From positions 1 to 55,715 of the forward strand of contig JBFHSI010000001.1 of NCBI GenBank assembly GCA_041591245.1: a stretch of 55,715 nucleotides of DNA. The letters are read 5' to 3'. The position numbers and the translations under genes are program-made. The DNA is from Marinobacter sp. (GTDB lineage Bacteria > Pseudomonadota > Gammaproteobacteria > Pseudomonadales > Oleiphilaceae). A model generated the notes under the pieces. It had not been told where the DNA came from. It saw nothing but the letters and a program-made list of their open reading frames with translations, and made no database searches. Within the stretch, counting starts at the first letter, position 1. Each line of letters starts with the position of its first letter. Shown one piece after another: positions 1 through 14,208 of the stretch.

Positions 1-14
1 TGGTGCGCGAGTGA
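1..14 (+). CDS. 3' end of an upstream CDS (partial; possibly a TlpA-family thioredoxin, which usually precedes DUF4266)
   Basis: Only ..VRE* (GTG CGC GAG TGA, 3-14) is visible. The identity is inferred from typical operon context. Confidence 0.25.
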
Positions 15-34
15 TTCGGTACAGGCCAAAGATT

Positions 35-271
35 ATGGGCAGATTGACCATTCGGGTGTTGTTGCTGGCGGTGCTGGTGGTTTCCGGCACCACCGGTTGC
101 AGTCCCATCAAGCCCTGGGTAAAACCCTATGAAAGGGACAAGCTGGCGGATCCAGTGATGAGCCTGAGTCGTCATGGCAAGGCGGATGTGTATATGCACC
201 ACGTCTATCAGGCCCGTGAATCTGCCCGGGGTGCCGAAGGTGGTTCAGGAGGCGGCTGTGGCTGTAACTGA
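35..271 (+). CDS. DUF4266 family small lipoprotein
   Basis: Signal peptide ending TTGC, the VKPYERxxLADPVM motif and the diagnostic C-terminal GGGCGCN. ATG 35 chosen (track starts at GTG 11). Confidence 0.85.
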   Translation: MGRLTIRVLLLAVLVVSGTTGCSPIKPWVKPYERDKLADPVMSLSRHGKADVYMHHVYQARESARGAEGGSGGGCGCN

Positions 272-1418
272 TATCCGCGACAGGCTGATCCGCCAGGCAG
301 GGCTGCTGGTCCTGTTGTGGCTGCCGGTTTCCGGTATTGCAGCAACGCTGCCGGCGGACAATGTAGACATGCTGTACCACCGTTACGACGGCGGCGGCAT
401 GGTCATTGATGGTCCGTCGGTGCTGGTCAGGAAAAGCGTTGGCTCTTCGGTGTCACTGACCGGCCAGTACTATGTGGACTCGGTATCCGCGGCATCCGTG
501 GATGTGCTGGCCACCGCCAGTGAGTATACCGAGGAGCGTAACGAATATACCGTCGGCGTGGACTATCTGCATGAGGATGCCACTCTGAGCCTGGGCTTTA
601 CCAACAGTTCAGAGAACGACTACGAGGCAAATACCGTGTATTTCTCGGTGAGCCAGGAGTTCTTCGGAGGTATGTCCACAATTACCATGGGGTATGCCAA
701 CGGCTGGGATGAGATTGGTAAGGTCGGCAATGACACCTTCAGTGAAGAGGCGGACCGGCGCAATTACCAGCTGGGCCTGAGTCAGGTGCTCAGCCGCAAC
801 AGCTTGGTGGGCATTGATCTGGAAGTGGTGACGGATGAGGGCTACCTGCAGAACCCATACCGCCAGAACCGGTATCTGGATCCCAATAACCCGGGTGCCT
901 ATCTGTATCAGCCAGAGCGTTATCCGGAAACCCGGACCAGTACCTCCGTGGCTGCCAGGGCGCTCTATTATCTGCCGTACCGGGCATCCATCCGCGGCGA
1001 GTACCGCTACTTTACCGACAGCTGGGGCATAGAGGCCCATACGGTGGAACTGGCCTATGTCCACGGACTGACCGAACGCTGGACCCTGGAAGGCTCGGTA
1101 CGCTACTACACCCAGGATGCTGCAGATTTCTACAGTGACCTGTATGCCTATGAAAACTCGCAGACCCATCTGGCCCGGGACAAGGAGCTGAGCACCCTGT
1201 CGGGAACCACCTTTGCTACCGGTGCTGTCTACGAATGGAAGCAGACATCAGTGCCGGGTATCAAAAGGCTGCAGTTCAGCCTTCTCGTAGACTGGCTTAA
1301 CTTTGAATACGACGATTTCCGGGACCTAACCGCGTCGGGCACTTATCAGCCTGGCGAGGAACCGCTTTATTCCTTTGATGCACTGGTTACCCGTGCATCT
1401 CTGATACTCGAATACTGA
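258..1418 (+). CDS. DUF3570 family outer-membrane beta-barrel protein
   Basis: GTG 258 with AGGAGG at 247-252, signal peptide, motifs YYVDSVSAAS-VDV and RYFTDSWGI, alternating beta-strands and an aromatic C-terminal residue (LEY). Confidence 0.85.
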   Translation: MAVTDIRDRLIRQAGLLVLLWLPVSGIAATLPADNVDMLYHRYDGGGMVIDGPSVLVRKSVGSSVSLTGQYYVDSVSAASVDVLATASEYTEERNEYTVGVDYLHEDATLSLGFTNSSENDYEANTVYFSVSQEFFGGMSTITMGYANGWDEIGKVGNDTFSEEADRRNYQLGLSQVLSRNSLVGIDLEVVTDEGYLQNPYRQNRYLDPNNPGAYLYQPERYPETRTSTSVAARALYYLPYRASIRGEYRYFTDSWGIEAHTVELAYVHGLTERWTLEGSVRYYTQDAADFYSDLYAYENSQTHLARDKELSTLSGTTFATGAVYEWKQTSVPGIKRLQFSLLVDWLNFEYDDFRDLTASGTYQPGEEPLYSFDALVTRASLILEY

Positions 1419-1437
1419 TTTGGCAGGAAGACTGATC

Positions 1438-1983
1438 ATGGCGATATCGTTCAAGTCCCTTGGTGTTGCAGCTGGTGCCGGCCTGTGGCTGGCGCTGGCA
1501 GGGCCTGCAGCCGCACAATCCGACGACAGCGCTGATACCAAGGCGGTAGCGGAGTCGGTGGAAGATCTCAAGAAGCAGGTGATAAGCCTGAACCGGGACC
1601 TGTTCATTCTGGAAGAGGATCTGCTGTTTCCCGCCAGCACCCAGGTTGCGGTGTTTCTGAGTGTGGATGCCGGTGAGTTCCTGAAACTGGATTCGGTAAA
1701 GCTGAAGGTGGACGGCGATGTGGTGGCTGCCTATCTGTACACGGATCGTCAGATTCAGGCCCTGGAGCGGGGTGGCATGCAACGGCTCTACGTGGGAAAC
1801 CTGAAGACCGGCAGTCATGAAGTGACCGCTTTTGTTGAAGGTATAGGTCCGGACAACCGGGCATACAAACAGGCGGCCACGCTGGAGTTCGAGAAGGCAA
1901 CTGGCACTGCAGCCCTTGAAATCCGGGTGCAGGACCGCTCCTCCGATTACCAGCCCGAAGTTTCCATTGTGGAATGGGAGTAA
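1438..1983 (+). CDS. Secreted conserved protein of DUF3570/TPR/ExbBD clusters (coiled coil + beta domain; often mislabelled AraC)
   Basis: Signal peptide (AAA|Q), LNRDLFILEEDLLFP and GGMQRLYVGNL motifs, no HTH. Confidence 0.75.
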   Translation: MAISFKSLGVAAGAGLWLALAGPAAAQSDDSADTKAVAESVEDLKKQVISLNRDLFILEEDLLFPASTQVAVFLSVDAGEFLKLDSVKLKVDGDVVAAYLYTDRQIQALERGGMQRLYVGNLKTGSHEVTAFVEGIGPDNRAYKQAATLEFEKATGTAALEIRVQDRSSDYQPEVSIVEWE

Positions 1984-3932
1984 ACCGCACTGTGGGACTG
2001 ATGGCAGGTATTCCGTTCCGAAGGCTGTCGGCACTGGTTGCCGGTGGTTGCCTGTGCTGGGCCGCAGTGGCACCGGTCCAGGCTGACGAGTCCTTGCCCG
2101 GGCACGCCCGGGATCTGAACTACGGCTGGATGCTGTACAGCTACCACCAGGGCAAAGCCTTTGACGCGCTGACCCGGTTGGGGGTTGCCCGGGAGCGGGG
2201 GGGCATTAAGGGGCATGGGGATTATCCTGAGTTGCTGGAAGGCAGCCTGATGCTGTCCTACGGCATGACCCGGGAAGCCGGCCAGGTGTTTACCGAGCTG
2301 CTGGGAAGGGATGGAGCCGGCAGCTCACTGTCTCCGGAAGTGCGTAATCAGGCCTGGTTCTATCTTGGCAAGGTGCTGTATCTGCAGGGTGATTACGAAC
2401 TGGCCCTGGGCAATCTGCAACGGGTGGATGGGGATGTTCTGGAGGACAGCGACGCCGCTCTGTATGAGGAATGGCTGTATCTGCAGGCCCGTCTTGCCAT
2501 GACTTTCCCGGGAGCCGGCGATGCTGAGGCTATCCGGGAACAGATGGATGAAGATACGCTCTGGTCAGACTATCTGGTGTACAACCATGCCATGCAACAG
2601 GTTGCCGACGGTGACCGCGAAGCTGCGGTAGAGACCCTGGTTGAGCTGATTGAGGACATGGAGGACCGGGGCCCCGAAACCGAAGATGAAACCCGGGAAT
2701 TCCACGCTCTGATCGACAAGAGCCGGCTGTCGCTGGCACGTCTGTATGTGGATGCCAACCGCTTTGATATAGCCCAGAAAACCCTTTGGAATTTGCCTGT
2801 AAACGGACCTTTTTCGGACCGGGCCCTGTTTGACTATGCCATCGCTGCCGCCGGCAGGGGCGATATGCAAAGGGCCTTCAATGCCATGGAGACCCTGTCC
2901 CGGAAAGAACTGTTCACACCCTGGCTGCAGCAGGTTCCCTATGCCCGGGGCTACCTTCTGGAACAGATGAATCGCCCCCGGGAGGCCCTGGCCGCGTTCC
3001 GGGAAGCCGCAAGCGAATATGAAGAACTGGATGCCCGCCTGGTCCAGGCCCGGGCTGAACTGACGGAAGAAAAGCTGCTGTCAGGTCTGCGTTTCAGTAC
3101 CGATGGTGGTGATGTGCAGACCGATGCCTATGGTCGCCTGCAGGTTGTACCTGAAGATTTTGCCCTGTCCGGAATTCTCGCCACGGAATCCTTCCAGCAG
3201 GCCCTCAGCGAATTGCACGAGCTCTACCAGATTGGTGCATTCCTCGGGGACTGGCTGAAACAGCTGGATTCTTTCCGGGCCATGCTGGAGACCCGCAGGA
3301 TCTATCGGGACTCCCGGATAGATCAGACCCGGGAAGTGCTTGCCGGGCTTGGGACTGATACATGGCTGGTAGAACATGAACAGCTCCGTCAGCAGATAGG
3401 TGAGGCTCTGGAGCGGGAAGATGCCGAATTCTTCATGACCACAGAACAGAAGGCTCTGAAACGGAAGCTGGACAAGGTGGCGGAGACTCTGGCGAAACTG
3501 CCGGATGACGAACGCACTGCCAGCCAGAGGGAAAAGTTCCGGCGTATGCAGGCCTATTTCAACTGGTGGATTGTGGATGACTACGGGATCAATCGCTGGG
3601 CCGCACAGAAACAGCTCCGGGAGCTGGACAGGGTTATGGCCGTTCATGTTTCCCAGTACGAAAAGATCGAACAGCTCATGGCGGAAGACAGGGAGAACCA
3701 GCAGTTGGGTCAACGCCTGGAACAGAAAGAACAGGAACTGCTGAGCCTGCAGGCTCGCTTGTCCGGTGTCCTGGATATTGCCCGGGCACAGCTGATGGCA
3801 AGCGTTGATGAAGCCCTGGCGAAACGCAGGGAACAGTTACGGGGCTACCTGGTGGCTTCCCGTCATGCCCAGGCTCGCCTGGCCGACCAGTTGTTCCGGT
3901 CCGGAGCGGTACAGGGAGGGGCTGATGAATAA
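1974..3932 (+). CDS. Secreted TPR/coiled-coil protein (GltC-like)
   Basis: Signal peptide (VQA|D), TPR-like helices (AWFYLGKVLYLQGDYELA) and a long C-terminal coiled coil. Start could be 2001. Confidence 0.75.
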   Translation: MGVNRTVGLMAGIPFRRLSALVAGGCLCWAAVAPVQADESLPGHARDLNYGWMLYSYHQGKAFDALTRLGVARERGGIKGHGDYPELLEGSLMLSYGMTREAGQVFTELLGRDGAGSSLSPEVRNQAWFYLGKVLYLQGDYELALGNLQRVDGDVLEDSDAALYEEWLYLQARLAMTFPGAGDAEAIREQMDEDTLWSDYLVYNHAMQQVADGDREAAVETLVELIEDMEDRGPETEDETREFHALIDKSRLSLARLYVDANRFDIAQKTLWNLPVNGPFSDRALFDYAIAAAGRGDMQRAFNAMETLSRKELFTPWLQQVPYARGYLLEQMNRPREALAAFREAASEYEELDARLVQARAELTEEKLLSGLRFSTDGGDVQTDAYGRLQVVPEDFALSGILATESFQQALSELHELYQIGAFLGDWLKQLDSFRAMLETRRIYRDSRIDQTREVLAGLGTDTWLVEHEQLRQQIGEALEREDAEFFMTTEQKALKRKLDKVAETLAKLPDDERTASQREKFRRMQAYFNWWIVDDYGINRWAAQKQLRELDRVMAVHVSQYEKIEQLMAEDRENQQLGQRLEQKEQELLSLQARLSGVLDIARAQLMASVDEALAKRREQLRGYLVASRHAQARLADQLFRSGAVQGGADE

Positions 3933-6813
3933 CCTCCGTCGTTACAGAGCTCTGGCTACCCGGCACCTGGCCACAGGCGCGGCGGTGCTGGTACTGGCCG
4001 GGTGCCAGGCCATGCCCTGGCCCTTTGCTGACCGGAGTGCAGGCCGGGATACGGATACCCTGACCCTGGGTGAACTGCCCGATACGGTGGCCGCTATACC
4101 GGCAACTCCGGATCCGTCTGCAGGCCCGGCAGAGGCGGTTTCACTAGAGACAGTGATGGACAGCTACCGGGCACTGCTGCCACTGGTGGAAGACCCCGTT
4201 ACCCAGGTCACCATCCGTCACCGTCTCGCGGATCTGGAGTTCATGCGGGCGGAACAGAAAATTGCCGATACCGCAGTGGATGAACTGTCCGGTGCCATTG
4301 ATGCCTATGTCAATCTGCTGACCGAGCATCCGGACCGGGAGGGTAACGACCAGATCTACTACCAGCTGGCCAGGGCCTGGGAACTGCGGGGAATGACGGC
4401 GGAGGAGCTGGACACCCTGAACACGCTGGTACAGACCTATCCGGACTCCCCTTACTGGGTGGAAGCCCAGTTCCGGCGCGCCGACCTGATGTTTACCGAT
4501 GGTCGCTACCGGGATGCCGAGCAGGCTTTCAGTGAGGTGGCGCGGGTCAGCCGGGAACGGGAAGCTGATGCCTCGTTTCTGGTGAATGCCCACTACATGA
4601 AGGGCTGGAGTCAGTTCAAGCAAGGCAATTATCAGCAGGCACTTCTGAGCTTTATTGATGTGCTGGACCTGGTATTGCCGGAAGGGCAGCCGGTTCAGGA
4701 CATCGACCAGCGTAACCGTACCCTGACTGAAGACCTGTTCCGGGTATTCGGCCTGTCCCTGACCTATCTGGACGGTGCGGACACCCTGCAGGCCCTGTTC
4801 CGGGAAACCGGCAGCCGACCCTACGAAATCCTGATCTATGAGCGGTACAGCAGCCTGCTGGTGGAGCGGGAGCAGTATTCCGATGCCATTGAAGTGTATG
4901 AAGCCTTTATTGAGGATCACCCGGACAGCCGCTGGGCGCCCAGGTATTACATCAATATTATCCAGACCCTGGAACTGGCCGGTTTCGGGCGTACGGTACC
5001 GGAGCGCAAGGCAGCCTTTGTCCGGGAATATGGTCTGTACAGCGACTACTGGGCTGGTGCTGACGAAGAAACCCTCGGCTATATAAAAGAGCAGCTGGAG
5101 CCCATGCTGTCGGAACTTGCTGACAGGGAGTATCTGCTGGCCGGGGAAACCAAGAAAGCAGCGGATGCCCGGGACCACTACCGGCAGTCTGCAGCCTATA
5201 ACGAGGAGTTCGTTGCCACCTTCCCGACCCATTCAGGTACGCCGGAACGTTTGTTCCTGCTGGGTGAAACCTATATCGAACTGCAGGACTGGCCCTCGGC
5301 GATTACCGCGTTCGAGCGGGTGGCCTATGACTTTTCCTACGGGGACGAGGTGCCGGGTCGGGCAGCGGAAGCCGGATATGCGGCGGTACTGGCATTTCGT
5401 GAATACGCGAAGACCTGGCCGCAGGAACCTGAATCAGAGCTGACCGGCTATCAGGAGCTCCAGCAGCTCAACCGGTTGCGCTTCGTTAACGCCTTCCCGG
5501 AGGACCCCCGGGCGCCGGATGTGTTCTATATCGCGTTACAGCGGGAATACGAACAGAGCAACTGGGAAGAGGTGGTTGCCATGTCCGCCCGCCTGGTGAC
5601 CTGGCAGCCGGCTCCGCCCCAGACGCTGATTACCGAAGCCCTGCTGCTGTCTGGCCACAGCCTGTTTGAGCTGGAGCGTTATGGTGAGGCTGAACAGTCC
5701 TACCGGGAGGCTTTGGCGGCCATGCCGGAAACCGACGAGCGGCGTACCGGAGTCATGGAGAACCTGGCCGCATCTGTATTCCGTCAGGCAGAACAGCTGG
5801 CCGAAGCCGGAGATGTGGATGCTGCCGTTGGCGAATACCTGAGGGTCGGAGTGCTGGTGCCGACATCCGCCCTGCGGGCCAATGCCGAATACGATGCCGC
5901 ATCCCTGCTGATTACTGCCGCGCGCTGGGATGAGGCTGCAACGGTCCTGAACGGATTCCGGGCACGCTTCCCGGACCATGAACTGGCCAATACCGTGCCC
6001 GCAAAACTGGCGCTGGCATACCGGGAAACCGGACAGTGGGAAAAGGCGGGGGATGAACTCAACCTTATGGTGGCCATGGCCTCCACCCCCGAAGAACACA
6101 GGGAAAACATGAGCATTGCCGCTGAGCTCTATGACAAGGCGGGCAATACCCAAAAGGCCATCACTGCCTGGGAGGATTACGCAAAGGCCTATCCGGAGCC
6201 TGCCGGGGAATATATGGAAGCCGCTAACCGGCTGGCGGAGCTGTACGAGTCCCAAGGCGATATCGCCAGCAGAAACACCTGGCTGTACCGGCAGATGGAC
6301 GTGGTTGACGGCAATCCTGATGCCAGTGATGACCGCATGCGCTGGCTGGCGGCTTCCGCCTCCGCAGTTCTGGCCCGGGAAGCCCTGGCCCGCTATGACG
6401 CCATAAGCCTGACTCTGCCCCTGGCCGACAGTATGGCTGCCAAGTCCGCAGCCCTGGAAGAGGCGGTCAATGCCTACCAGAAAACAGCAGGTTACGGCCT
6501 GTCCTCCTTTGCCACCGAAGCCGGCTACCAGATCGCCCATATCTATGGTCGCCTGGGATCAGACCTGATGAATTCGGAAAGACCAGCAGGGCTTTCCGAG
6601 CTGGAGCTGGAACAGTATGAACTGCTGCTGGAAGAGCAGGCCTATCCCTTTGAGGATAACGCCATTGATATCCACGAGCAGAATATCCTGCGGGCCAGAG
6701 AGGGCATTTTCGACGAGTGGGTGCAGCGGAGTTACGAGGCGCTGCGGCAGCTACTGCCGGGCCGATACAACAAACAGGAAGTTACAACCGGAGTCGTCAA
6801 TGAGCTGGGCTAA
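3925..6813 (+). CDS. Large TPR lipoprotein (GltD/AgmU-like)
   Basis: ATG 3925 overlaps the previous stop, lipobox VLAGC, many TPR repeats (YYQLARAWE, AHYMKGWSQFK), C-terminal LEEQAYPFEDNAIDIHEQN...W...L..L.P.RY. Confidence 0.8.
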   Translation: MNNLRRYRALATRHLATGAAVLVLAGCQAMPWPFADRSAGRDTDTLTLGELPDTVAAIPATPDPSAGPAEAVSLETVMDSYRALLPLVEDPVTQVTIRHRLADLEFMRAEQKIADTAVDELSGAIDAYVNLLTEHPDREGNDQIYYQLARAWELRGMTAEELDTLNTLVQTYPDSPYWVEAQFRRADLMFTDGRYRDAEQAFSEVARVSREREADASFLVNAHYMKGWSQFKQGNYQQALLSFIDVLDLVLPEGQPVQDIDQRNRTLTEDLFRVFGLSLTYLDGADTLQALFRETGSRPYEILIYERYSSLLVEREQYSDAIEVYEAFIEDHPDSRWAPRYYINIIQTLELAGFGRTVPERKAAFVREYGLYSDYWAGADEETLGYIKEQLEPMLSELADREYLLAGETKKAADARDHYRQSAAYNEEFVATFPTHSGTPERLFLLGETYIELQDWPSAITAFERVAYDFSYGDEVPGRAAEAGYAAVLAFREYAKTWPQEPESELTGYQELQQLNRLRFVNAFPEDPRAPDVFYIALQREYEQSNWEEVVAMSARLVTWQPAPPQTLITEALLLSGHSLFELERYGEAEQSYREALAAMPETDERRTGVMENLAASVFRQAEQLAEAGDVDAAVGEYLRVGVLVPTSALRANAEYDAASLLITAARWDEAATVLNGFRARFPDHELANTVPAKLALAYRETGQWEKAGDELNLMVAMASTPEEHRENMSIAAELYDKAGNTQKAITAWEDYAKAYPEPAGEYMEAANRLAELYESQGDIASRNTWLYRQMDVVDGNPDASDDRMRWLAASASAVLAREALARYDAISLTLPLADSMAAKSAALEEAVNAYQKTAGYGLSSFATEAGYQIAHIYGRLGSDLMNSERPAGLSELELEQYELLLEEQAYPFEDNAIDIHEQNILRAREGIFDEWVQRSYEALRQLLPGRYNKQEVTTGVVNELG

Positions 6814-7378
6814 ACCTCTGGCAGTTGCCACATTGTTTGCGGTGTTGCTGAGCGGATGCGCGCTGAGTCCCGGAAAAGGTTCAGGTACCTCGGGGGCTCC
6901 CGGGGCTGATCCATCCTTACAGAAGGCCTTTGCAGAGGCTGTGAACCTGATGCAGGCGGGTAATACCGGCGAAGCCAAAGCCCGTTTCCAGGAACTGGCG
7001 AAAGCCCATCCGGAGCGCACCGGGCCGCTGGCGAACCTGGGGGTTCTGGCCTATCAGGCTGGTAATCCGGACGAGGCCCGGGGTTACTTCGAGGCGGTGA
7101 TTACCCTGGATCCGGGGCACAAGGCTGCGCTCAATTATCTGGGGGTGATTGCCCGTCTGAACGGTGATTTTGAACAGGCTGAAGGCTTTTACCTCAAGGC
7201 CCTTGAGGCGGATCCGGATTATCTGCCGGCCATGCTGAACCTGGGCATTCTTCTGGATATCTATCTGGGGCGCCCGGAAGAGGCGATTCCCCTGTATGAA
7301 CAGTACCAGGCCATGGCTCCGGATATGCAACCGGGGCTGGAAGACTGGATTTTTGATGCCAAGAACCGGCTGCAATGA
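6800..7378 (+). CDS. TPR lipoprotein (GltE/AglT-like)
   Basis: ATG 6800, lipobox LLSGC, 3-4 TPRs (NLGVLAY, NYLGVIAR, NLGILLDIY). Confidence 0.8.
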   Translation: MSWAKPLAVATLFAVLLSGCALSPGKGSGTSGAPGADPSLQKAFAEAVNLMQAGNTGEAKARFQELAKAHPERTGPLANLGVLAYQAGNPDEARGYFEAVITLDPGHKAALNYLGVIARLNGDFEQAEGFYLKALEADPDYLPAMLNLGILLDIYLGRPEEAIPLYEQYQAMAPDMQPGLEDWIFDAKNRLQ

Positions 7379-7388
7379 GGTGACGGAC

Positions 7389-7700
7389 ATGACTATGTGC
7401 AAGTACCTGCTTCCGGTGGCAGCTCTGATGCTGGCCGTGCCCGGGCTACAGGCCCAGGAGTCCGGGGTGATGACTATCGAAGGTGCACGTATCCGTGGTG
7501 ATCAGGAAATGCCCACGGTGATGTACCTGGTGCCCTGGCAGCCCCCGACAGCGGAGACGCTCCCGGGGCGGGATGAGCGTCTGCTGGTGTCCCAGGCGTT
7601 TGAGCCTCTGGAGCGATACGAATTCCAGCGGCTGGTGAAATATTACGAAGTTTTTCGCCAGAGCCAGGAGGAAAACGCTCCGGCACCGGACAGTCCCTGA
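7389..7700 (+). CDS. Small secreted protein (GltF-like)
   Basis: GAGG SD and ATG 7389, signal peptide (LQA|Q), conserved-looking IEGARIRGDQEMPTVMYLVPW motif. Confidence 0.7.
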   Translation: MTMCKYLLPVAALMLAVPGLQAQESGVMTIEGARIRGDQEMPTVMYLVPWQPPTAETLPGRDERLLVSQAFEPLERYEFQRLVKYYEVFRQSQEENAPAPDSP

Positions 7701-7834
7701 GAACAGCATCACAACCTGCCTGTGCCTGAACGCAAGGGAAAACAAACCGCTACAAAGACTTTCGCGAACTTACCCCTACCGGGCCCATAGCCCTTTACAC
7801 TGATCCAAATACCGGACCATGGAGTACTACCAAA

Positions 7835-8530
7835 ATGATTGATACCGCCGTTCGCTTCTTCCAGGAAGGTGGCTTTTTTATGTATCCGATTGCTGTTGTT
7901 CTGATCATCGGACTCATTGTAGCCATTGAACGATATGTATACCTGTCTGCGCAGAAACTGACCAATCGTCGGGATTTCAATCGTCTGCACCAGCTGATCG
8001 CCAAGCGTGATTACAAAAATGCCCTGAACTACGCCACGGATTCCGGAACCGCCATGTCCACCATGATTGGATTCGGCCTGCAGCGTCTGGCCCGCCGTCA
8101 GGGCCGTGAGGAAATCGAATACGCCATGGAAGAAGGCCTGCTGGACGTTATGCCGCGCCTGGAAAAACGCACCCAGTACCTGGCTACTCTGGCCAATATC
8201 GCAACCCTGCTGGGGCTGCTCGGTACCATCATTGGTCTGATCGCTGCGTTTACTGCAGTGGCTTCTGCCGATCCGGCGGAGAAGGCCAGCCTGCTGTCCC
8301 AGAGTATTTCCGTGGCCATGAACACCACCGCTTTCGGTCTTATGTCCGCCATTCCCATGCTGCTGATCCACTCGCTGCTGCAAACCAAGACCAACGAGAT
8401 TGTCGACAGTTTTGAAATGGCCGGAGTCAAGATTCTCAACCTGCTGAGTGATGGCAACGGACAGCGTTCCCAGGTACAGGGCACACCTGCTGCAGCAAAG
8501 GTAGCCACTCCGGCTGGCTCAGCGGCCTGA
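7835..8530 (+). CDS. MotA/TolQ/ExbB proton channel protein (AglR-like)
   Basis: Three TM helices, ATLLGLLGTIIGLI and ISVAMNTTAFGL motifs. Confidence 0.92.
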   Translation: MIDTAVRFFQEGGFFMYPIAVVLIIGLIVAIERYVYLSAQKLTNRRDFNRLHQLIAKRDYKNALNYATDSGTAMSTMIGFGLQRLARRQGREEIEYAMEEGLLDVMPRLEKRTQYLATLANIATLLGLLGTIIGLIAAFTAVASADPAEKASLLSQSISVAMNTTAFGLMSAIPMLLIHSLLQTKTNEIVDSFEMAGVKILNLLSDGNGQRSQVQGTPAAAKVATPAGSAA

Positions 8531-8555
8531 TAACCAGAAAAAAGGACATCAGGCC

Positions 8556-9068
8556 ATGAGACGGAAACATCGTCGGTTACATACAGAGCCGGATCTGGAC
8601 ATCACGCCTTTCATGAACCTCATGATTGTGCTGGTGCCGGTTCTGCTGCTGAATATGGTGTTTGCCCACACCAGTGTGCTGGAGTTGAACTTTCCCACCG
8701 GAGACAGCCTGAATCAGGATCAGCAGGAAGAGCTACAGATTCAGGTGATCGTCTACGAAGACCAGCTGGTAGTGGCAGCCAATCAGGGTGGCGTTATCAA
8801 GGTCATTCCCAAGGCGGATGGGGAATACAACTTTATTAAGCTCAAGGACGTCATGAAGGAGCTGAAAAGCCGGGTTCCTGCAAAGAAAGACGTCATTATC
8901 ATGCCTTCCACCCAGACCAGCTACCAGACTCTGGTGACGGTCATGGATACGGTTCGTTCCTATGAGACGGTTGTTGCCGGCAGTGTGGTTGATGCCGAAC
9001 TGTTTCCGGACATCTCTCTTGGTGATGCACCTGCGCAGACCGGCAAGGACGGAGGGGTGAGCTCATGA
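8556..9068 (+). CDS. ExbD/TolR family subunit 1 (canonical TM Asp replaced by Asn)
   Basis: Basic N-terminus, TM LDITPFMNLMIVLVPVLL, C-terminal YQTLVTVMD. Confidence 0.85.
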   Translation: MRRKHRRLHTEPDLDITPFMNLMIVLVPVLLLNMVFAHTSVLELNFPTGDSLNQDQQEELQIQVIVYEDQLVVAANQGGVIKVIPKADGEYNFIKLKDVMKELKSRVPAKKDVIIMPSTQTSYQTLVTVMDTVRSYETVVAGSVVDAELFPDISLGDAPAQTGKDGGVSS

Positions 9069-9565
9069 AAGAATCCGCCAAGGCCCGCCGGGTCAGGCGT
9101 CATCAGCGGCGCAGCCAGAATCAGAGCAAGCTGAACCTGGTTTCACTGATGGACATATTTACCATTCTGGTGTTCTTCCTGATGGTGAATTCGTCCTCGG
9201 ACGTTCAGGTCCTTAACCAGAACAGCACCATCAAACTGCCGGATTCCACGGCGGAGAAATCCCCCGATGAAGTGTTGGCGCTGACGGTGACCGATGAGGA
9301 CATTCTGGTGAACGGCCGGGTTGTGCTCAAACGTGCAGCGCTGCTTGCCTTTGACGGGCAGGTTGAGCCGGCACTGAAGGAAGAGCTGAACTATCAGGCC
9401 AGCCGTACCTTGGTTTCGGCACCGGATACCGGGCGCCCGATTACCATTCTGGCAGACCGGGAGCTTCCCTATGAGCTGCTGAAGAAAATCATGTCCACCT
9501 GCGTGGATGCCGGTTACGCCGCTATTTCACTGGCGGTGAATCAGCATAAGGAACAGGGGGCCTGA
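9065..9565 (+). CDS. ExbD/TolR family subunit 2 (AglS-like)
   Basis: LNLVSLMDIFTILVFFLM with the conserved Asp; ILADRELPYELLKKIM. Confidence 0.88.
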   Translation: MKESAKARRVRRHQRRSQNQSKLNLVSLMDIFTILVFFLMVNSSSDVQVLNQNSTIKLPDSTAEKSPDEVLALTVTDEDILVNGRVVLKRAALLAFDGQVEPALKEELNYQASRTLVSAPDTGRPITILADRELPYELLKKIMSTCVDAGYAAISLAVNQHKEQGA

Positions 9566-9567
9566 CA

Positions 9568-10557
9568 ATGATGGATTATTGGTATGGATTGCCCTGGAAC
9601 CGGGAGCCGGGGGAGCGCAAGCGCCTGCTGACCATCTCCATGGTGGTGGTGCCCCTGTGCCTGGCTTTTGCGGTATTTGTGACCCTGGTGGAGTTGCCGG
9701 AACCGGACCGCAAGGAAAAGGAAGCTTTGCCTCCGCAACTGGCCAAACTCATTCTGGAGCGTAAGGAGCCGCCCAAGCCGGTGGTTGTTCCCAAACCCGA
9801 GCCTGAGCCGGAAAAGCCCAAGCCGGAAGAGAAACCGGAAAAGAAACCGGTGGAGCAGGCCAAGCCGGAACCTAAACCGGAACCCAAGCCCAAGCCTAAA
9901 CCGCGGATTGAAAAGAAACCCGAACCCACACCAGAGAAAGTTCAGGTGGCCAGGGAGAAGGTGAAGAAAACCGGCATTCTGGCCATGGGCAAGGAACTGT
10001 CGAAAATGAGTGAGCTGGCCAGTTCAGTGAAACTCAACGCTCCGGTTACCCGGACCGCCCAGCCCATCGCCAGAAAGACCACAGATACTCTGGCGGCACG
10101 GGCGACGGCTACCGGCCGCAGTGCCGGCGTCGACGAGGCCAATCTGCAGCGTGAAACCCGGCAGGTGGCACTGGCCGAAAGGCAGCGTGCGGAAGTCGCC
10201 GAGGTGGAACGGGTCGCAGCGGTCAAGGAAGAAGTCCGCCGTGCCCAGAAGGATGTGGCTTCCAGAACCCGGAGCAGGGAAGAGCTGCGGCGCACCATGG
10301 ATGCCAACAAATCGGCTATCTACAGCATCTATAACCGGGAGCTGAGGCGTAAACCGTCGCTTCAGGGCAGTATTACCCCGGAACTGGTGATCGAATCCAA
10401 TGGCTCGGTATCCAGTTGTGCTGTGGTTGAGTCAACCCTCAACGAACCGGGGCTTGAGAAGAAAATCTGTAACCGCCTGAGACTGGTGGATTTCGGTGCC
10501 CGTCCAGGAGTGGATCAGACCAAGATCCGCTATCCCATCGAACTCCTGCCCGGCTGA
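9568..10557 (+). CDS. TonB-like energy transducer with AgmX/PglI-type C-terminal domain (GltG-like)
   Basis: Single TM, Pro/Lys/Glu-rich linker, C-terminal IYNRELRRKPSLQG...I..NG.V domain. Confidence 0.85.
   Translation: MMDYWYGLPWNREPGERKRLLTISMVVVPLCLAFAVFVTLVELPEPDRKEKEALPPQLAKLILERKEPPKPVVVPKPEPEPEKPKPEEKPEKKPVEQAKPEPKPEPKPKPKPRIEKKPEPTPEKVQVAREKVKKTGILAMGKELSKMSELASSVKLNAPVTRTAQPIARKTTDTLAARATATGRSAGVDEANLQRETRQVALAERQRAEVAEVERVAAVKEEVRRAQKDVASRTRSREELRRTMDANKSAIYSIYNRELRRKPSLQGSITPELVIESNGSVSSCAVVESTLNEPGLEKKICNRLRLVDFGARPGVDQTKIRYPIELLPG
9766..9936 (+). repeat. Low-complexity (KP/EP)n coding repeat in the TonB-like linker
   Basis: EPPKPVVVPKPEPEPEKPKPEEKPEKKP...KPEPKPEPKPKPKP; boundaries approximate. 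Confidence 0.7.
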
Positions 10558-10592
10558 CTCTGCCGGTCAGGCTTTCCGGTTCTCCCTGGTTG

Positions 10593-10635
10593 TCCCGGCA
10601 TCAGATTCTTTGTCTGATGCCGGGATTCCTTTTTC
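10593..10635 (+). terminator. Rho-independent terminator ending the envelope operon
   Basis: 13-bp perfect stem TCCCGGCATCAGA / TCTGATGCCGGGA, 7-nt loop, followed by TTCCTTTTT. Confidence 0.75.
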
Positions 10636-10771: not shown

Positions 10772-11095
10772 ATGACCAACCGGAAATCGGAACTGGAAAC
10801 CCTCAAAGCAGACCTGAGCGCCAGGCTGTCCCGCTACAAGTCCCACCAGCATCGGGAAGAAGGGGCTCTGGACAAGGATTTTGCTGAGCAGGCCAACCAG
10901 ACCCAGAATGATGAGGTTGTGGATTCCCTGGAAACGGAAACCCGTGCTGAATTGTTACAGGTAGAGCATGCCCTGGAGCGTATTGAAAGCGGGGAGGGGG
11001 ATCTGTGCGAGGTTTGCGGCAAAACCATTGACCCGCGTCGGTTGCAGGTGCTGCCTTACACTACCCTGTGTGTGGATTGCGCGGGCTCGGAATAA
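10772..11095 (+). CDS. TraR/DksA C4-type zinc finger protein
   Basis: CEVC...CVDC zinc finger, coiled coil with DFAEQA tip, AGGAG SD. Confidence 0.9.
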
Positions 11096-11112
11096 GCCCG
11101 ACGGAGCCGGCG

Positions 11113-11829
11113 GTGACCGAGTCCCGGCAACCGGTGTTTCACGCCCGCGGGGTGGTGAAAACCTATCGGCAGGGTGAGGTTGAGGTGCGCGCCCTGCGGG
11201 GGGTGGACCTGGATCTGTATGCCGGGGAGCTGGTGGTCATGCTGGGGGCCTCCGGGTCCGGGAAGTCCACGCTGCTGAATATTCTGGGGGGGCTGGATGT
11301 GCCCACATCAGGGGAGGTCCGGTACCGGGATTACGAGCTGACAAACGCCAGCGACCGGACCCTGACTGCCTACCGCCGGGAGCATGTGGGCTTTGTCTTC
11401 CAGTTCTATAACCTCATTCCAAGCCTGACGGCCCTTGAAAATGTGGAGGCAGTCACCGAGATTGCCAGCCATCCCATGGCCGCGGAAGACGCCCTGGCCC
11501 TGGTGGGCCTGCAGGATCGCATGGACCATTTTCCGGCACAGATGTCCGGCGGCGAGCAACAGCGGGTGGCCATAGCCCGGGCTGTGGCCAAGCGCCCGGA
11601 TGTACTGCTCTGTGACGAGCCCACCGGTGCCCTGGACTCAGAAACCGGAATACTGGTGCTGGCTGCTCTGGACCGGGCCAACCGGGAAACCGGCACCACC
11701 ACCGTTATCATTACCCACAATGCTTCCATTGCCGGCATGGGTGACCGGGTGATCACCCTGTCCGATGGCAATATCAGTGGTCAGCGGCGCAATGACCAGC
11801 GTCAGGACCCACACACACTGAGCTGGTAG
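11113..11829 (+). CDS. ABC transporter ATP-binding protein (MacB/LolD type)
   Basis: [39 protein letters not shown]; GTG 11113 after GGAG. Confidence 0.93.
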
Positions 11830-11832
11830 CTT

Positions 11833-14208
11833 ATGGGCAGGGTTTTCGGCACCTTGAACACCAAACTGCGCCGGGAACTCTGGCATATGCGGGGGCAGGT
11901 GCTGGCCATTTCCCTGGTGATTGCCGGTGGAGTTGCCGTCTGCGTCATGTCCCTGGTGAACTACTCCTCCCTGTCTGCGACCCGCAGCCTGTACTACCAG
12001 CAGTATCAGTTTGCCGAGGTGTTCGCCGTCCTGAAACGGGCTCCGGAGCATGTTCTGCAACGGGTTGCGGAGATCCCCGGCATTACCCGCATCAGCAGCC
12101 GGGTAGAAGGGGCCGCCAAGCTGGAAATTGCCGGTTTCAGCGATCCGGTATCGGCCCGTCTGGTGTCACTACCGGCCGGGGGGCAGCCGGAGGTGAACCG
12201 GCTGTTTGTGCGCTCCGGACGTTTGCCGGCGGCCGGCCGCAACCGGGAGGTGGCGGTGATTGGCAGTTTTGCCGAGGCCCACGGCCTGAAACCCGGAGAT
12301 ACTTTTCCCGCCATCATCAATGGCCGGCGTCAGGTTCTGCGGCTGACCGGAATTGTGGAGTCTCCTGAGTTTATCTATGTCATTCCGCCCGGGGGCATGC
12401 TGCCGGACTACCTGCGCTACGGAGTTCTGTGGATGAGCCGGGATGCCCTGGAAGCTGCCATGGACATGAAGGGGGCTTTCAACAGTCTGGTGGCGCGGGT
12501 GCGGCCGGGTTATCCGGTGGACTCGGTTATCGATGAGCTGGACCGGGTGCTGGATCGCTATGGGGGTACCGGTGCCTACAGCCGTGAGGACCAGTTTTCC
12601 CACCGCTTTCTCAATGATGAGCTGACCCAGCTGAAGGTGATGGCCACGGTTTTTCCTCTTGTTTTTATGGGGGTGGCCATGTTTCTGCTGAATGTGGTGA
12701 TCGGGCGGCTGATCAGTACCCAGCGGGATATTATTGCCATTCTCAAGGCCTTTGGTTACAGCAACCGGCAGATCGGCTGGCATTACAGCCAGATGGTGCT
12801 GGTTATTGCGGTCACCGGGTTTGTTCTGGGGCTGGCCCTGGGGCTCTGGGCCGGAAATGCCATGGGCCGGATGTATATGCAGTACTACCGTTTTCCCTGG
12901 CTGCTGTTCCGGATTCACCCCGGATGGATTCTGGTGCTGGGCGCAGGCACAGTTCTGGTGGCCTGGCTGGGTGGCTGGCGGGCCATTCGTCAGGCTACAG
13001 CCCTGCCGCCGGCGGAGGCAATGAGGCCGGAAGGGCCTGCCAGGTTCCGGGTTACCCGGCTGGAAACATGGCTCTCGGGGCTGCGCCTGTCCCAGCCCTC
13101 CCGGATGATTTTCCGGCAGATGGCGCGACGGCCCCTGCGCAGTTTTCTGGCTATGCTGGGTGTGGCCATGGCGACCGCAATTATTCTGGTGGGTAACTTC
13201 CAGTTCGATTCGGTGGCCCTGATGGTGCATGCCCAGTTTGCCCGGGTGCAGCAGGAGGATCTGGCGGCCACCTTTACCGATCCGGTCAATGGGGCTGTGC
13301 TCTATGATCTGAGGCGCAAACCTGGGGTGCGCTTTGCCGAAGGGCGGCGTGTGGTGGCTGCGCGCCTGGTCAATGGTCACCGGCAGTGGCGCAGTGCGGT
13401 GACCGGAATTCCGGCGGATGCCCGCCTGCAGTTTGTGGTGGACCGGGAGATGCAGCCGGTGACCATCCCCCTGGAGGGCCTGCTGATCACTGATTATCTG
13501 GCCAGGGAGCTGGATATAGCACCCGGGGACCGGCTGGTCATTGACATTCTGGAAGGCGACCGGCGGCAGATTTCGGTGCCCGTGGCCGGTATCAGCCAGG
13601 AATTTCTGGGGGTGGGGGTGTACATGAACCTGGATGCCCTGAACCGGGTACTGGGCGATGGAGACCTGATCAATCAGGCTCTGGTGAATGTGCAGCCGGA
13701 CCGGGCCGGGGAGGTGTACCGGACCCTGAGGGACATGCCCAAGGTACAGGGTGTCAGTATCCGCCAGACTCTGATCGACAGTTTTCATGACACTCTGGGC
13801 AAGACCTTTCTGACCTTTACTTTTTTCAACAGCCTGCTGGGGGGCATTATTGCCTTCGGGGTTATTTACAACACAGTACGCATTTCCCTGGCCGAGAAGG
13901 GCCGGGAGTTGGCGAGCCTCCGGGTGCTTGGGTATACCCATAACGAGGTTGCCCATATTCTGCTGGGGGATATTGCCCTGCTGTTGCTGGGGGGAATCCC
14001 CCTGGGCTGGCTGATTGGTGAAGGCCTGGCCTCTATGATCATTACCGCCATGCAGACAGAGCTGTATCGGGTACCTCTGCTGATAACCCCGCAGACTCTG
14101 GGCATGTCAGGGGCGGTGGTGATTGTCTCGGCACTGGCGTCGGGAGTTATTGCCTGGTGGCGGTTGCGGGGGCTGGATCTGGTGGCGGTATTGAAAACGA
14201 GGGAATGA
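11833..14208 (+). CDS. FtsX/MacB-like ABC permease (duplicated)
   Basis: Two FtsX halves (QRDIIAILKAFG; GRELASLRVLG) with large periplasmic domains. Confidence 0.9.
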   Translation: MGRVFGTLNTKLRRELWHMRGQVLAISLVIAGGVAVCVMSLVNYSSLSATRSLYYQQYQFAEVFAVLKRAPEHVLQRVAEIPGITRISSRVEGAAKLEIAGFSDPVSARLVSLPAGGQPEVNRLFVRSGRLPAAGRNREVAVIGSFAEAHGLKPGDTFPAIINGRRQVLRLTGIVESPEFIYVIPPGGMLPDYLRYGVLWMSRDALEAAMDMKGAFNSLVARVRPGYPVDSVIDELDRVLDRYGGTGAYSREDQFSHRFLNDELTQLKVMATVFPLVFMGVAMFLLNVVIGRLISTQRDIIAILKAFGYSNRQIGWHYSQMVLVIAVTGFVLGLALGLWAGNAMGRMYMQYYRFPWLLFRIHPGWILVLGAGTVLVAWLGGWRAIRQATALPPAEAMRPEGPARFRVTRLETWLSGLRLSQPSRMIFRQMARRPLRSFLAMLGVAMATAIILVGNFQFDSVALMVHAQFARVQQEDLAATFTDPVNGAVLYDLRRKPGVRFAEGRRVVAARLVNGHRQWRSAVTGIPADARLQFVVDREMQPVTIPLEGLLITDYLARELDIAPGDRLVIDILEGDRRQISVPVAGISQEFLGVGVYMNLDALNRVLGDGDLINQALVNVQPDRAGEVYRTLRDMPKVQGVSIRQTLIDSFHDTLGKTFLTFTFFNSLLGGIIAFGVIYNTVRISLAEKGRELASLRVLGYTHNEVAHILLGDIALLLLGGIPLGWLIGEGLASMIITAMQTELYRVPLLITPQTLGMSGAVVIVSALASGVIAWWRLRGLDLVAVLKTRE

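What the first reader, a model, noticed from the sequence alone, without database searches (positions are those of the whole stretch)
35..10557. Agl-Glt-like trans-envelope motor fused to a DUF4266/DUF3570 outer-membrane module: best candidate for an uncharacterised system
Seen: 11 co-oriented genes, mostly overlapping or close together, closed by one terminator. They span every envelope compartment: OM barrel, lipoprotein with C-terminal CGC, three TPR scaffolds, small secreted protein, ExbB-like channel, two ExbD-like subunits and a TonB/AgmX-like transducer. No TonB-dependent receptor or TolB/Pal lies in the visible operon. Established: this TPR + ExbB/ExbD/ExbD + TonB-like set corresponds to the core of the Myxococcus Agl-Glt gliding and Nfs spore-coat machinery, and as I recall related cores occur in non-gliding gammaproteobacteria with no known function. 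DUF3570/DUF4266 genes have separately been linked to thioredoxin/ApbE redox clusters. Inference: a PMF-driven machine acting on the DUF3570 barrel, possibly redox-gated, for export, assembly or movement of a surface substrate.
Basis: partly seen in the sequence, partly recalled or inferred. Interest (0 to 1): 0.85.

Follow-up and report, generated by a model that had tools for sequence, protein, structure and literature searches.

The report
Gliding-motor core with haem cargo
These eleven genes encode the motility-free core of the Myxococcus gliding motor in a Marinobacter, and its most constant partners across genomes are two small outer-membrane barrels and a two-haem lipoprotein just upstream, which the motor likely holds and moves at the cell surface, giving a testable job to a machine whose function has been open since 2011.

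Summary
The 11 co-oriented genes and the terminator are real. Seven of them, plus the small gene, are the gammaproteobacterial Agl-Glt 'core complex' of unknown function (Luciano 2011). The window is the tail of a 19-gene locus that continues on contigs C141 and C154: two TIGR04565-type barrels (the family of barrels found near myxobacterial gltC), a hydrazine-synthase-alpha-like di-haem lipoprotein, TlpA, ApbE, two more cytochromes and a Tat protein. In 401 Gammaproteobacteria, all 57 genomes with the barrel/DUF3570 module (34 families) also have the scaffold gene orf3, in shuffled gene orders. The halves are therefore linked. DUF3570 is not the constant partner: five Marinobacter loci keep motor, barrels and haem lipoprotein without it. 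Best model (inferred): a proton-driven motor pulls, through the Glt scaffold, on a GltA/B-like barrel pair that holds the haem lipoprotein, as GltAB holds CglB. DUF3570/DUF4266/TlpA/ApbE would be an accessory redox arm. No binding or activity was shown. My literature searches did not find the link; this scan had already noted the same locus on other DNA. New variant of a known kind.

The parts
1..14 (+). 3' end of TlpA-family thioredoxin gene (body on contig C141)
   Evidence: C1 starts with ...VRE* and C141 ends inside TlpA; same order in relatives
35..271 (+). DUF4266 lipoprotein, C-terminal CGC
   Evidence: PF14086 78.9 bits; C22, C75, C77 conserved
258..1418 (+). DUF3570, predicted 16-strand outer-membrane barrel without plug; SAAS at the first flavinylation site
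   Evidence: PF12094; model pLDDT 90.5; barrel matches; motif; start
1438..1983 (+). orf3: secreted protein, constant first gene of the scaffold block; named 'AraC family regulator' in databases, with no family hit here
   Evidence: weak profile match to a Polyangiales protein in the same position (prob 58.8%)
1974..3932 (+). GltC-like TPR protein
   Evidence: profile hits the Myxococcota protein in the gltC position, up to 65 bits; one such protein is NF033756-like at 277.6 bits, below the 450 cut-off
3925..6813 (+). GltD-like TPR lipoprotein
   Evidence: profile hits the Myxococcota gltD-position protein at 198 bits and a Polyangiales paralogue at 319-327 bits
6800..7378 (+). GltE-like TPR lipoprotein (short form)
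   Evidence: NF033758 42 bits, below cut-off; 143 bits to the Myxococcota gltE-position protein; TPR hits are partly generic
7389..7700 (+). small secreted protein, positional counterpart of GltF/CglF
   Evidence: same position after gltE as Myxococcota CglF; hhalign prob 24.6%, inconclusive
7835..8530 (+). AglR-like (ExbB/TolQ family) channel subunit
   Evidence: PF01618; profile 200 bits to the Myxococcota motor gene at L140 vs 114 to the best other paralogue in this genome; both channel Thr conserved
8556..9068 (+). ExbD-like subunit 1, Asn in place of the proton-carrying Asp
   Evidence: PF02472; N in 41 of 44 aligned rows
9065..9565 (+). ExbD-like subunit 2, Asp kept
   Evidence: PF02472; D in 45 of 45 rows
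9568..10557 (+). GltG-like transducer: one TM helix, Pro-rich linker, AgmX/PglI C-domain, no cytoplasmic FHA
   Evidence: NF033768 65 bits over cut-off; NF033760 match covers model positions 376-642 only
10592..10626 (+). intrinsic terminator-like hairpin
   Evidence: 15 pairs, 8 G-C, T run

Best explanation
The window encodes the Agl-Glt core (motor AglR/Q/S-like, transducer GltG-like, scaffold GltC/D/E-like), which likely works as a proton-driven machine that pulls on a pair of small outer-membrane barrels predicted to hold a di-haem, hydrazine-synthase-alpha-like propeller lipoprotein at the outer membrane and so to control its exposure or position. Shown here: the identity of the core, the linkage to the barrels and the lipoprotein through many gene shuffles, and the folds of DUF3570 and the lipoprotein (predicted models). 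Inferred from the Myxococcus model (PMC11761067, itself an AlphaFold study; PMC9946355): ion flow turns the 5:2 motor; the GltG C-domain grips the small GltF-like protein and GltD; GltC docks under the barrels; the lipoprotein takes the place of the adhesin CglB. The DUF3570/DUF4266/TlpA/ApbE genes and the PSD-like, LamG and Tat proteins would be an accessory redox arm, kept in most lineages and lost in some. The substrate is unknown; electron exchange or haem chemistry at the cell surface is the most likely output.
For: Co-occurrence in an even draw of 401 Gammaproteobacteria: 57 of 57 genomes with the close DUF3570 subfamily and/or TIGR04565 over cut-off have orf3 (34 families), and 53 of 54 with the haem lipoprotein have orf3. 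44 of 57 DUF3570 places lie within 30 kb of orf3, 13 are on another contig, and none is far away on the same contig. The link survives many orders and orientations. In the genus, 62 of 62 barrel genes (61 genomes besides G000, of 121 searched) lie within 3 kb of an orf3. Minimal form: 5 of 5 loci fetched of a second Marinobacter type have barrels | orf3-core-lipoprotein and no DUF3570, PSD, LamG, Tat or ApbE in the DNA fetched. The two barrels are paralogues (prob 96.6%). Tandem TIGR04565 barrels lie about 6-25 kb from gltC in 3 of 5 Myxococcota genomes searched. Two Polyangiales loci run barrel, orf3-like, GltC, GltD, GltE. The lipoprotein has an invariant lipobox Cys and two invariant CxxCH and matches hydrazine synthase alpha over most of its length (5c2v, E 9.6e-29, TMq 0.53).
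Against: All functional steps are inferred from gene context and analogy; nothing here shows surface exposure. Many cores have no such partners: 21 of 78 orf3-positive genomes lack the module, and 40 of 102 orf3-positive Marinobacter lack the barrel. The core can therefore exist, or persist, without this cargo. Four of 57 module genomes had no lipoprotein match. Orthology to GltA/GltB is weak on sequence: the gamma barrel profile scores the tandem Myxococcota barrels at only about 20 bits. Kin are not independent, and the GltD tree has poor deep support. The Mtr cytochrome cluster next to the barrels was seen in only 1 of 5 loci.
Confidence: 0.45

Rival explanations
1. Energised uptake: the motor works like TonB, opening an outer-membrane channel capped by the propeller lipoprotein (as BtuG or SusD cap their barrels) to import and reduce or modify a metal complex or small substrate.
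For: The motor family is the same as ExbBD. A surface propeller lipoprotein, BtuG, is among the fold matches (Z 15.6). Méheust 2021 (PMC8238504, passages) links some DUF3570 clusters to an iron transporter. DUF3570 is a 16-strand barrel.
Against: No plug-bearing receptor in the locus: DUF3570 has only 17 residues before its first strand. A TonB-dependent receptor was seen in 1 of 37 neighbouring proteins scanned. The constant barrels are about 190-230 aa, probably too small for a pore (general knowledge).
Confidence: 0.2
2. Biogenesis machine: the motor drives export or assembly of the haem lipoproteins across the outer membrane, with TlpA/DUF4266 keeping their cysteines reduced.
For: Three c-type cytochromes and a Tat protein with many conserved Cys, plus a ResA/TlpA thioredoxin, in the locus.
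Against: In Myxococcus the Glt barrels are not needed for CglB to reach the surface (PMC9946355, passages). The minimal loci have no TlpA.
Confidence: 0.15
3. One reading: the motor acts on the DUF3570 barrel, gated by the DUF4266/TlpA redox state.
For: DUF3570 lies within 2.5 kb of orf3 at 27 of 57 places; the close DUF3570 subfamily was never found without orf3 (56 of 56 genomes).
Against: Five complete motor loci lack it. In G030 it is on another contig. 35 genomes have only distant DUF3570s, and 27 of them have no orf3.
Confidence: 0.12
4. The two halves are unrelated neighbours that travel together.
For: Half or more of the core copies stand alone among housekeeping genes (30 of 60 loci).
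Against: One-way dependence of module on core in 57 of 57 genomes, linkage kept through inversions and shuffles, and barrel-orf3-GltC order also in Myxococcota.
Confidence: 0.05
5. It drives gliding as in Myxococcus.
For: Homologous motor and scaffold.
Against: The GltG-like protein lacks the FHA half; no GltI, GltJ or vWA adhesin in the locus. Luciano 2011 argues that the core alone does not drive motility.
Confidence: 0.03

Closest known systems
Agl-Glt 'core complex' of Gammaproteobacteria (gltC, D, E, G, aglR, Q, S plus one extra gene; Luciano et al. 2011, PMC3169522)
   Same: Same seven genes in one operon. The locus-tag pattern given for Marinobacter aquaeolei (1807-1814, with 1811 unlisted) fits this gene order, with the small gene as the 'extra' one (my reading of the tags).
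   Different: Described as having no barrels (gltA/B restricted to Myxococcales and Bdellovibrionales) and as 'standalone' (Wartel 2013, PMC3858216). Here it has orf3, two barrels of the TIGR04565 type, cytochromes and a flavinylation module.
Myxococcus xanthus Agl-Glt gliding and Agl-Nfs spore-coat machines
   Same: Heterodimeric ExbD pair, TonB-like GltG, TPR scaffold in the order C-D-E-small, barrel pair, propeller lipoprotein as putative cargo.
   Different: No FHA domain, no GltI/GltJ platform in the locus, no vWA adhesin; the putative cargo is a di-haem protein; one ExbD has Asn for Asp.
DUF3570-DUF4266-thioredoxin-ApbE flavinylation clusters (Méheust et al. 2021, PMC8238504)
   Same: All four genes are in the locus.
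   Different: Divergent DUF3570 subfamily (23-24% identity to three canonical ones), mostly without [ST]GA[ST]; no DsbD in the locus. 'barrel', 'ExbB' and 'TPR' do not occur in that paper's main text.
Hydrazine synthase alpha subunit (PDB 5C2V) and its non-anammox homologues (Hägglund et al. 2025, PMC12758564)
   Same: Propeller, middle domain, two haem motifs; a conserved His (H856) aligns with His772.
   Different: Lipoprotein; no Tyr at the Tyr591 position; no beta/gamma gene in the locus. 'Gammaproteobacteria' does not occur in that paper's main text.

Membership tests
Agl-Glt core complex | gltC, gltD, gltE homologues clustered | tested here: met
   Profiles of the three TPR proteins pick the three genes upstream of Myxococcota gltG in the same order (65, 198, 143 bits)
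Agl-Glt core complex | gltG-type transducer with AgmX/PglI C-domain | tested here: met
   NF033768 65.2 bits, cut-off 40; its profile retrieves FHA-bearing GltG-like proteins
Agl-Glt core complex | AglR plus two ExbD-like subunits of the Agl clade | tested here: met
   200 bits to the Myxococcota motor gene (1 locus, L140) vs 114, 60 and 53 to this genome's other paralogues; no tree of the motor was built
Full Myxococcus gliding machine | cytoplasmic FHA domain on GltG | tested here: not met
   329 aa, TM at the N-terminus; matches NF033760 positions 376-642 only
Full Myxococcus gliding machine | GltI, GltJ, GltK, CglB | tested here: inconclusive
   none in the locus; the GltG-like profile finds no second gene in the genome; no genome-wide search for GltI, GltK or CglB; genome 88% complete
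Full Myxococcus gliding machine | GltF/CglF | tested here: inconclusive
   same position and layout; hhalign prob 24.6%, E 8e-4; direct hmmsearch found nothing
GltA/GltB outer-membrane barrels | paired small barrels of the family found near gltC | tested here: inconclusive
   One barrel is over the TIGR04565 cut-off (156.9 bits); its partner is a paralogue; tandem Myxococcota barrels near gltC are TIGR04565. Direct scores to those are about 20 bits, and 69-71 bits to the paralogue clusters. M. xanthus GltA/B themselves were not available.
Tol-Pal | TolQ/TolR orthologues with TolB and Pal | tested here: not met
   TIGR02796 61.5 vs cut-off 221; TolR 27-33 vs 127; no Pal among the locus genes
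TonB-ExbBD uptake system | plug-bearing TonB-dependent receptor, ExbB orthologue | tested here: not met
   TIGR02797 48 vs 206; DUF3570 model has no plug
DUF3570 flavinylation system | ApbE + DUF3570 + DUF4266 + thioredoxin together | tested here: met
   ApbE at the far end of the divergent arm (C154)
DUF3570 flavinylation system | two [ST]GA[ST] motifs in DUF3570 | tested here: not met
   none in this protein. At the first site 4 of 23 motor-type proteins have SGAS and 21 of 23 keep the last Ser/Thr; all 3 canonical proteins have two or more motifs
DUF3570 flavinylation system | covalent FMN on DUF3570 | not testable with these tools
   needs co-expression with ApbE
Hydrazine synthase | alpha subunit with Tyr591-ligated haem I, plus beta and gamma subunits | tested here: not met
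   no Tyr after the first CxxCH (residue roles from PMC12758564 section 8); no beta/gamma-like gene among the locus genes; genome not searched for them

The most novel reading that the evidence does not exclude
The ancestral job of the Agl-Glt machine is to display and mechanically drive a haem lipoprotein on a GltA/B-type barrel platform: a PMF-powered, motor-coupled surface redox apparatus with a flavinylated barrel as electron path, widespread in Gammaproteobacteria. Myxobacterial gliding arose when the propeller-cytochrome cargo was replaced by a propeller-vWA adhesin.
Probability: 0.3. Interest if true: 0.85.

Novelty: new variant of a known kind. Interest (0 to 1): 0.62.

Why it matters
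The function of the Agl-Glt core outside myxobacteria has been open since 2011, and the core was thought to lack outer-membrane parts. This locus names candidate outer-membrane partners and a cargo in a culturable genus, with natural variants (full, minimal, orphan) to compare. If the model holds, it shows what the gliding motor did before motility, adds a new use for 5:2 ion-driven motors (acting on redox proteins), and gives context to two orphan families: motor-type DUF3570 barrels and non-anammox hydrazine-synthase-alpha homologues. The locus is common: 57 of 401 Gammaproteobacteria and 62 of 121 Marinobacter sampled.

Tried and rejected
Complex prediction of GltC-like + orf3 with the TIGR04565 barrel as partner gave no answer (score 0.00 in 2 of 2 runs, controls not folded); it is not used as evidence either way. 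The partner barrel was left out of that job. No RNA holder was listed for window 1-9990, so co-transcription is untested. The ESM Atlas gave no result for orf3. orf3 has no PDB sequence relative beyond coiled-coil noise. A search for long relatives of the GltG C-domain with the single sequence found none; the alignment did. The maximum-likelihood GltD tree did not finish. The FastTree run (66 rows, long rows cut to the last 940 residues) scatters unlinked cores among linked ones with weak deep support, so no order of gain or loss is claimed. No sigma-70-like promoter was found on the + strand. DUF3570 fold matches are generic barrels (best Z 18.8, rmsd 3.9, 284 aligned, CdiB), so no specific relative is claimed. 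Rejected: 'AraC regulator' for orf3 (signal peptide, no Pfam or NCBIfam hit); hydrazine synthesis; large genes beside orphan cores as cargo (housekeeping genes). Literature searches without a paper on the link: (open-access library only). The supplementary gene tables of PMC8238504 were not read and may list some of these neighbours.


Full report
Observation. The eleven genes are present as described, on the + strand from 35 to 10557, followed by a 15-pair hairpin at 10592-10626. Pfam and NCBIfam give DUF4266, DUF3570, three TPR proteins, ExbB/TolQ, two ExbD and an AgmX/PglI C-terminal domain over its cut-off. orf3 and the small gene have no family. Homologues of orf3 are labelled Marinobacter.

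The core is known. Luciano et al. 2011 (PMC3169522; I read parts 1-2 of 8, passages and Figure S1 text) describe gltC, D, E, G and aglR, Q, S plus one extra gene as an operon of unknown function in Gammaproteobacteria, Marinobacter included. Wartel 2013 (PMC3858216, passages) calls it standalone. I tested membership on 80 Myxococcota loci fetched around GltG-like genes. Profiles built from the gamma proteins pick the three genes upstream of gltG in the same order (65, 198, 143 bits) and, in one locus, the motor (ExbB 200 bits). This genome's other ExbB/TolQ paralogues score 114 or less, and TolQ and ExbB models score far below their cut-offs. The small gene sits where CglF/GltF sits, but the profile match is inconclusive. 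The motor looks intact: both channel threonines are conserved, and one ExbD keeps Asp (45 of 45) while the other has Asn (41 of 44).

The locus is larger than the window. The window opens contig C1 with the last codons of TlpA. C141 carries, co-oriented, an 888-aa lipoprotein, an SH3+barrel protein, a TIGR04565 barrel and TlpA. Divergently it carries a PSD-like mono-haem protein and a LamG di-haem lipoprotein. C154, which overlaps C141, adds a Tat-type protein and a convergent apbE. Relatives carry the lipoprotein-to-GltG arm on single contigs, and the divergent arm continues as here. That makes 19 genes.

Linkage. In an even draw of 401 Gammaproteobacteria (G000 included), orf3 was found in 78, the close DUF3570 subfamily in 56 (bits over 150, 400 scored), TIGR04565 over cut-off in 55 and the lipoprotein in 54. 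All 57 genomes with barrel or close DUF3570 have orf3; they span 34 families. 53 of 54 with the lipoprotein have orf3. The converse fails: 21 of 78 have only the core. Of 57 DUF3570 places, 44 are within 30 kb of orf3, 13 on other contigs and none far on the same contig. I fetched 60 of the 99 orf3 places outside G000. Thirty show module genes within the 20 kb fetched, in many orders and orientations; the others sit among housekeeping genes. The bit-score thresholds were chosen after seeing the lists, and related genomes are not independent.

Which partner is constant. In 121 Marinobacter, 62 have the barrel; all 62 barrel genes outside G000 lie within 3 kb of an orf3. Nineteen of these places are a second type. 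I fetched five of them: the two barrels are transcribed divergently from orf3, the haem lipoprotein follows gltG, and no DUF3570, DUF4266, TlpA, PSD, LamG, Tat or ApbE gene is in the DNA fetched. PF12094 was not found in 4 of these 5 genomes (99-100% complete); the fifth has a canonical one on another contig. G030 places lipoprotein, barrels and TlpA directly before orf3, with DUF3570 elsewhere. So the barrels and the lipoprotein, not DUF3570, are the near-constant partners. In Myxococcota, tandem TIGR04565 barrels lie near gltC in 3 of 5 genomes searched, and two Polyangiales loci run barrel, orf3-like, GltC, GltD, GltE. Direct similarity to the tandem barrels is weak, about 20 bits.

Structures. 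DUF3570 is predicted as a 16-strand barrel without plug (pLDDT 90.5; strands counted; generic barrel matches). The first flavinylation site reads SAAS at the end of strand 3. Only 4 of 23 motor-type proteins have the canonical SGAS there, though 21 keep the last Ser/Thr, so flavinylation is possible but not shown. Méheust 2021 (PMC8238504, passages) showed it for a canonical DUF3570. The lipoprotein (pLDDT 87.7) matches hydrazine synthase alpha with a TolB-like propeller. It has two invariant CxxCH; H856 aligns with His772 (my reading of the offsets), and there is no Tyr591 equivalent (roles from PMC12758564, abstract, passages and section 8). It is therefore unlikely to make hydrazine.

Mechanism (inferred). 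In the Myxococcus model (PMC11761067, parts 1-3 of 7 read; an AlphaFold study) GltC sits under the barrels, GltF bridges GltC to the GltG C-domain, and the barrels hold the lipoprotein CglB, which has a propeller followed by a vWA domain. Experiments show that the barrels retain and regulate CglB but do not export it (PMC9946355, passages); PMC5349195 (part 1 of 2) gives the TonB-like pulling model. The gamma locus has a counterpart for most of these parts, with a propeller-cytochrome in place of a propeller-vWA. I therefore propose that the motor pulls on a barrel platform that holds the haem lipoprotein and controls its exposure or position, and that the flavin/thiol genes form an optional redox arm (0.45). 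That the genes form one system I put at about 0.85. Rivals are energised uptake (0.2), a biogenesis machine (0.15), action on DUF3570 (0.12), mere neighbourhood (0.05) and gliding (0.03).

Novelty. The parts are known; the assembly was not found in the eight literature searches (listings only, except the papers named above; subscription journals are mostly missing). The scan's own notes had already reported this locus on other DNA, which I saw after reaching the linkage result. Verdict: new variant of a known kind, interest 0.62.

Noticed in passing
L233:11370-18395 (G023): A complete MtrC/MtrA/MtrB cluster with a NapC-type tetrahaem and a di-haem shuttle lies right behind the two barrels; seen in 1 of 5 such loci.
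   Followed up: partly
L231:1419-9882; L232:9698-16791: Many Marinobacter carry a second, partner-less core copy beside dnaX/recR and a MoxR-type gene; in G012 this copy has lost the three motor genes but keeps gltG. G000 showed only one copy.
   Followed up: partly
window 8556-9068: The first ExbD has Asn instead of the proton-carrying Asp in 41 of 44 rows, so the heterodimer may have one proton path; the Myxococcota pair at L140 has Asp in both.
   Followed up: partly
window 1438-1983: orf3 homologues are widely named 'AraC family transcriptional regulator' although the protein has a signal peptide and no family hit; it precedes gltC in 59 of 60 loci (loci were chosen by orf3).
   Followed up: yes
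L227:13216-16792 (G441, Polyangiales): Lipoprotein, SH3+barrel, DUF3570 and another lipoprotein form a small operon away from any Glt genes.
   Followed up: no
L225:812-7805; L226:6822-15073: A Polyangiales Glt paralogue cluster closer to the gamma core than canonical gltD, with barrel and orf3-like gene in front.
   Followed up: partly
window 7700-7835; L067, L076, L081, L085, L088, L099 and others: The 134-nt gap before ExbB is a recurrent break point: in about 16 of 60 loci (counted by eye) the motor genes do not follow the scaffold block.
   Followed up: no
L239:11102-11779 and four sister loci: A conserved 225-aa two-helix membrane protein with no family follows the haem lipoprotein in all 5 minimal loci and was not found in the full-type loci.
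   Followed up: partly
L058:4682-5968; L059:6028-7602: The PSD-like mono-haem protein (weak DUF1585/DUF1588 hits) and the Tat protein (no family) are highly conserved and uncharacterised.
   Followed up: partly
window 10772-14208: After the terminator come a DksA/TraR-type zinc-finger gene and an ABC exporter-like pair; these differ in relatives and are not part of the system.
   Followed up: no
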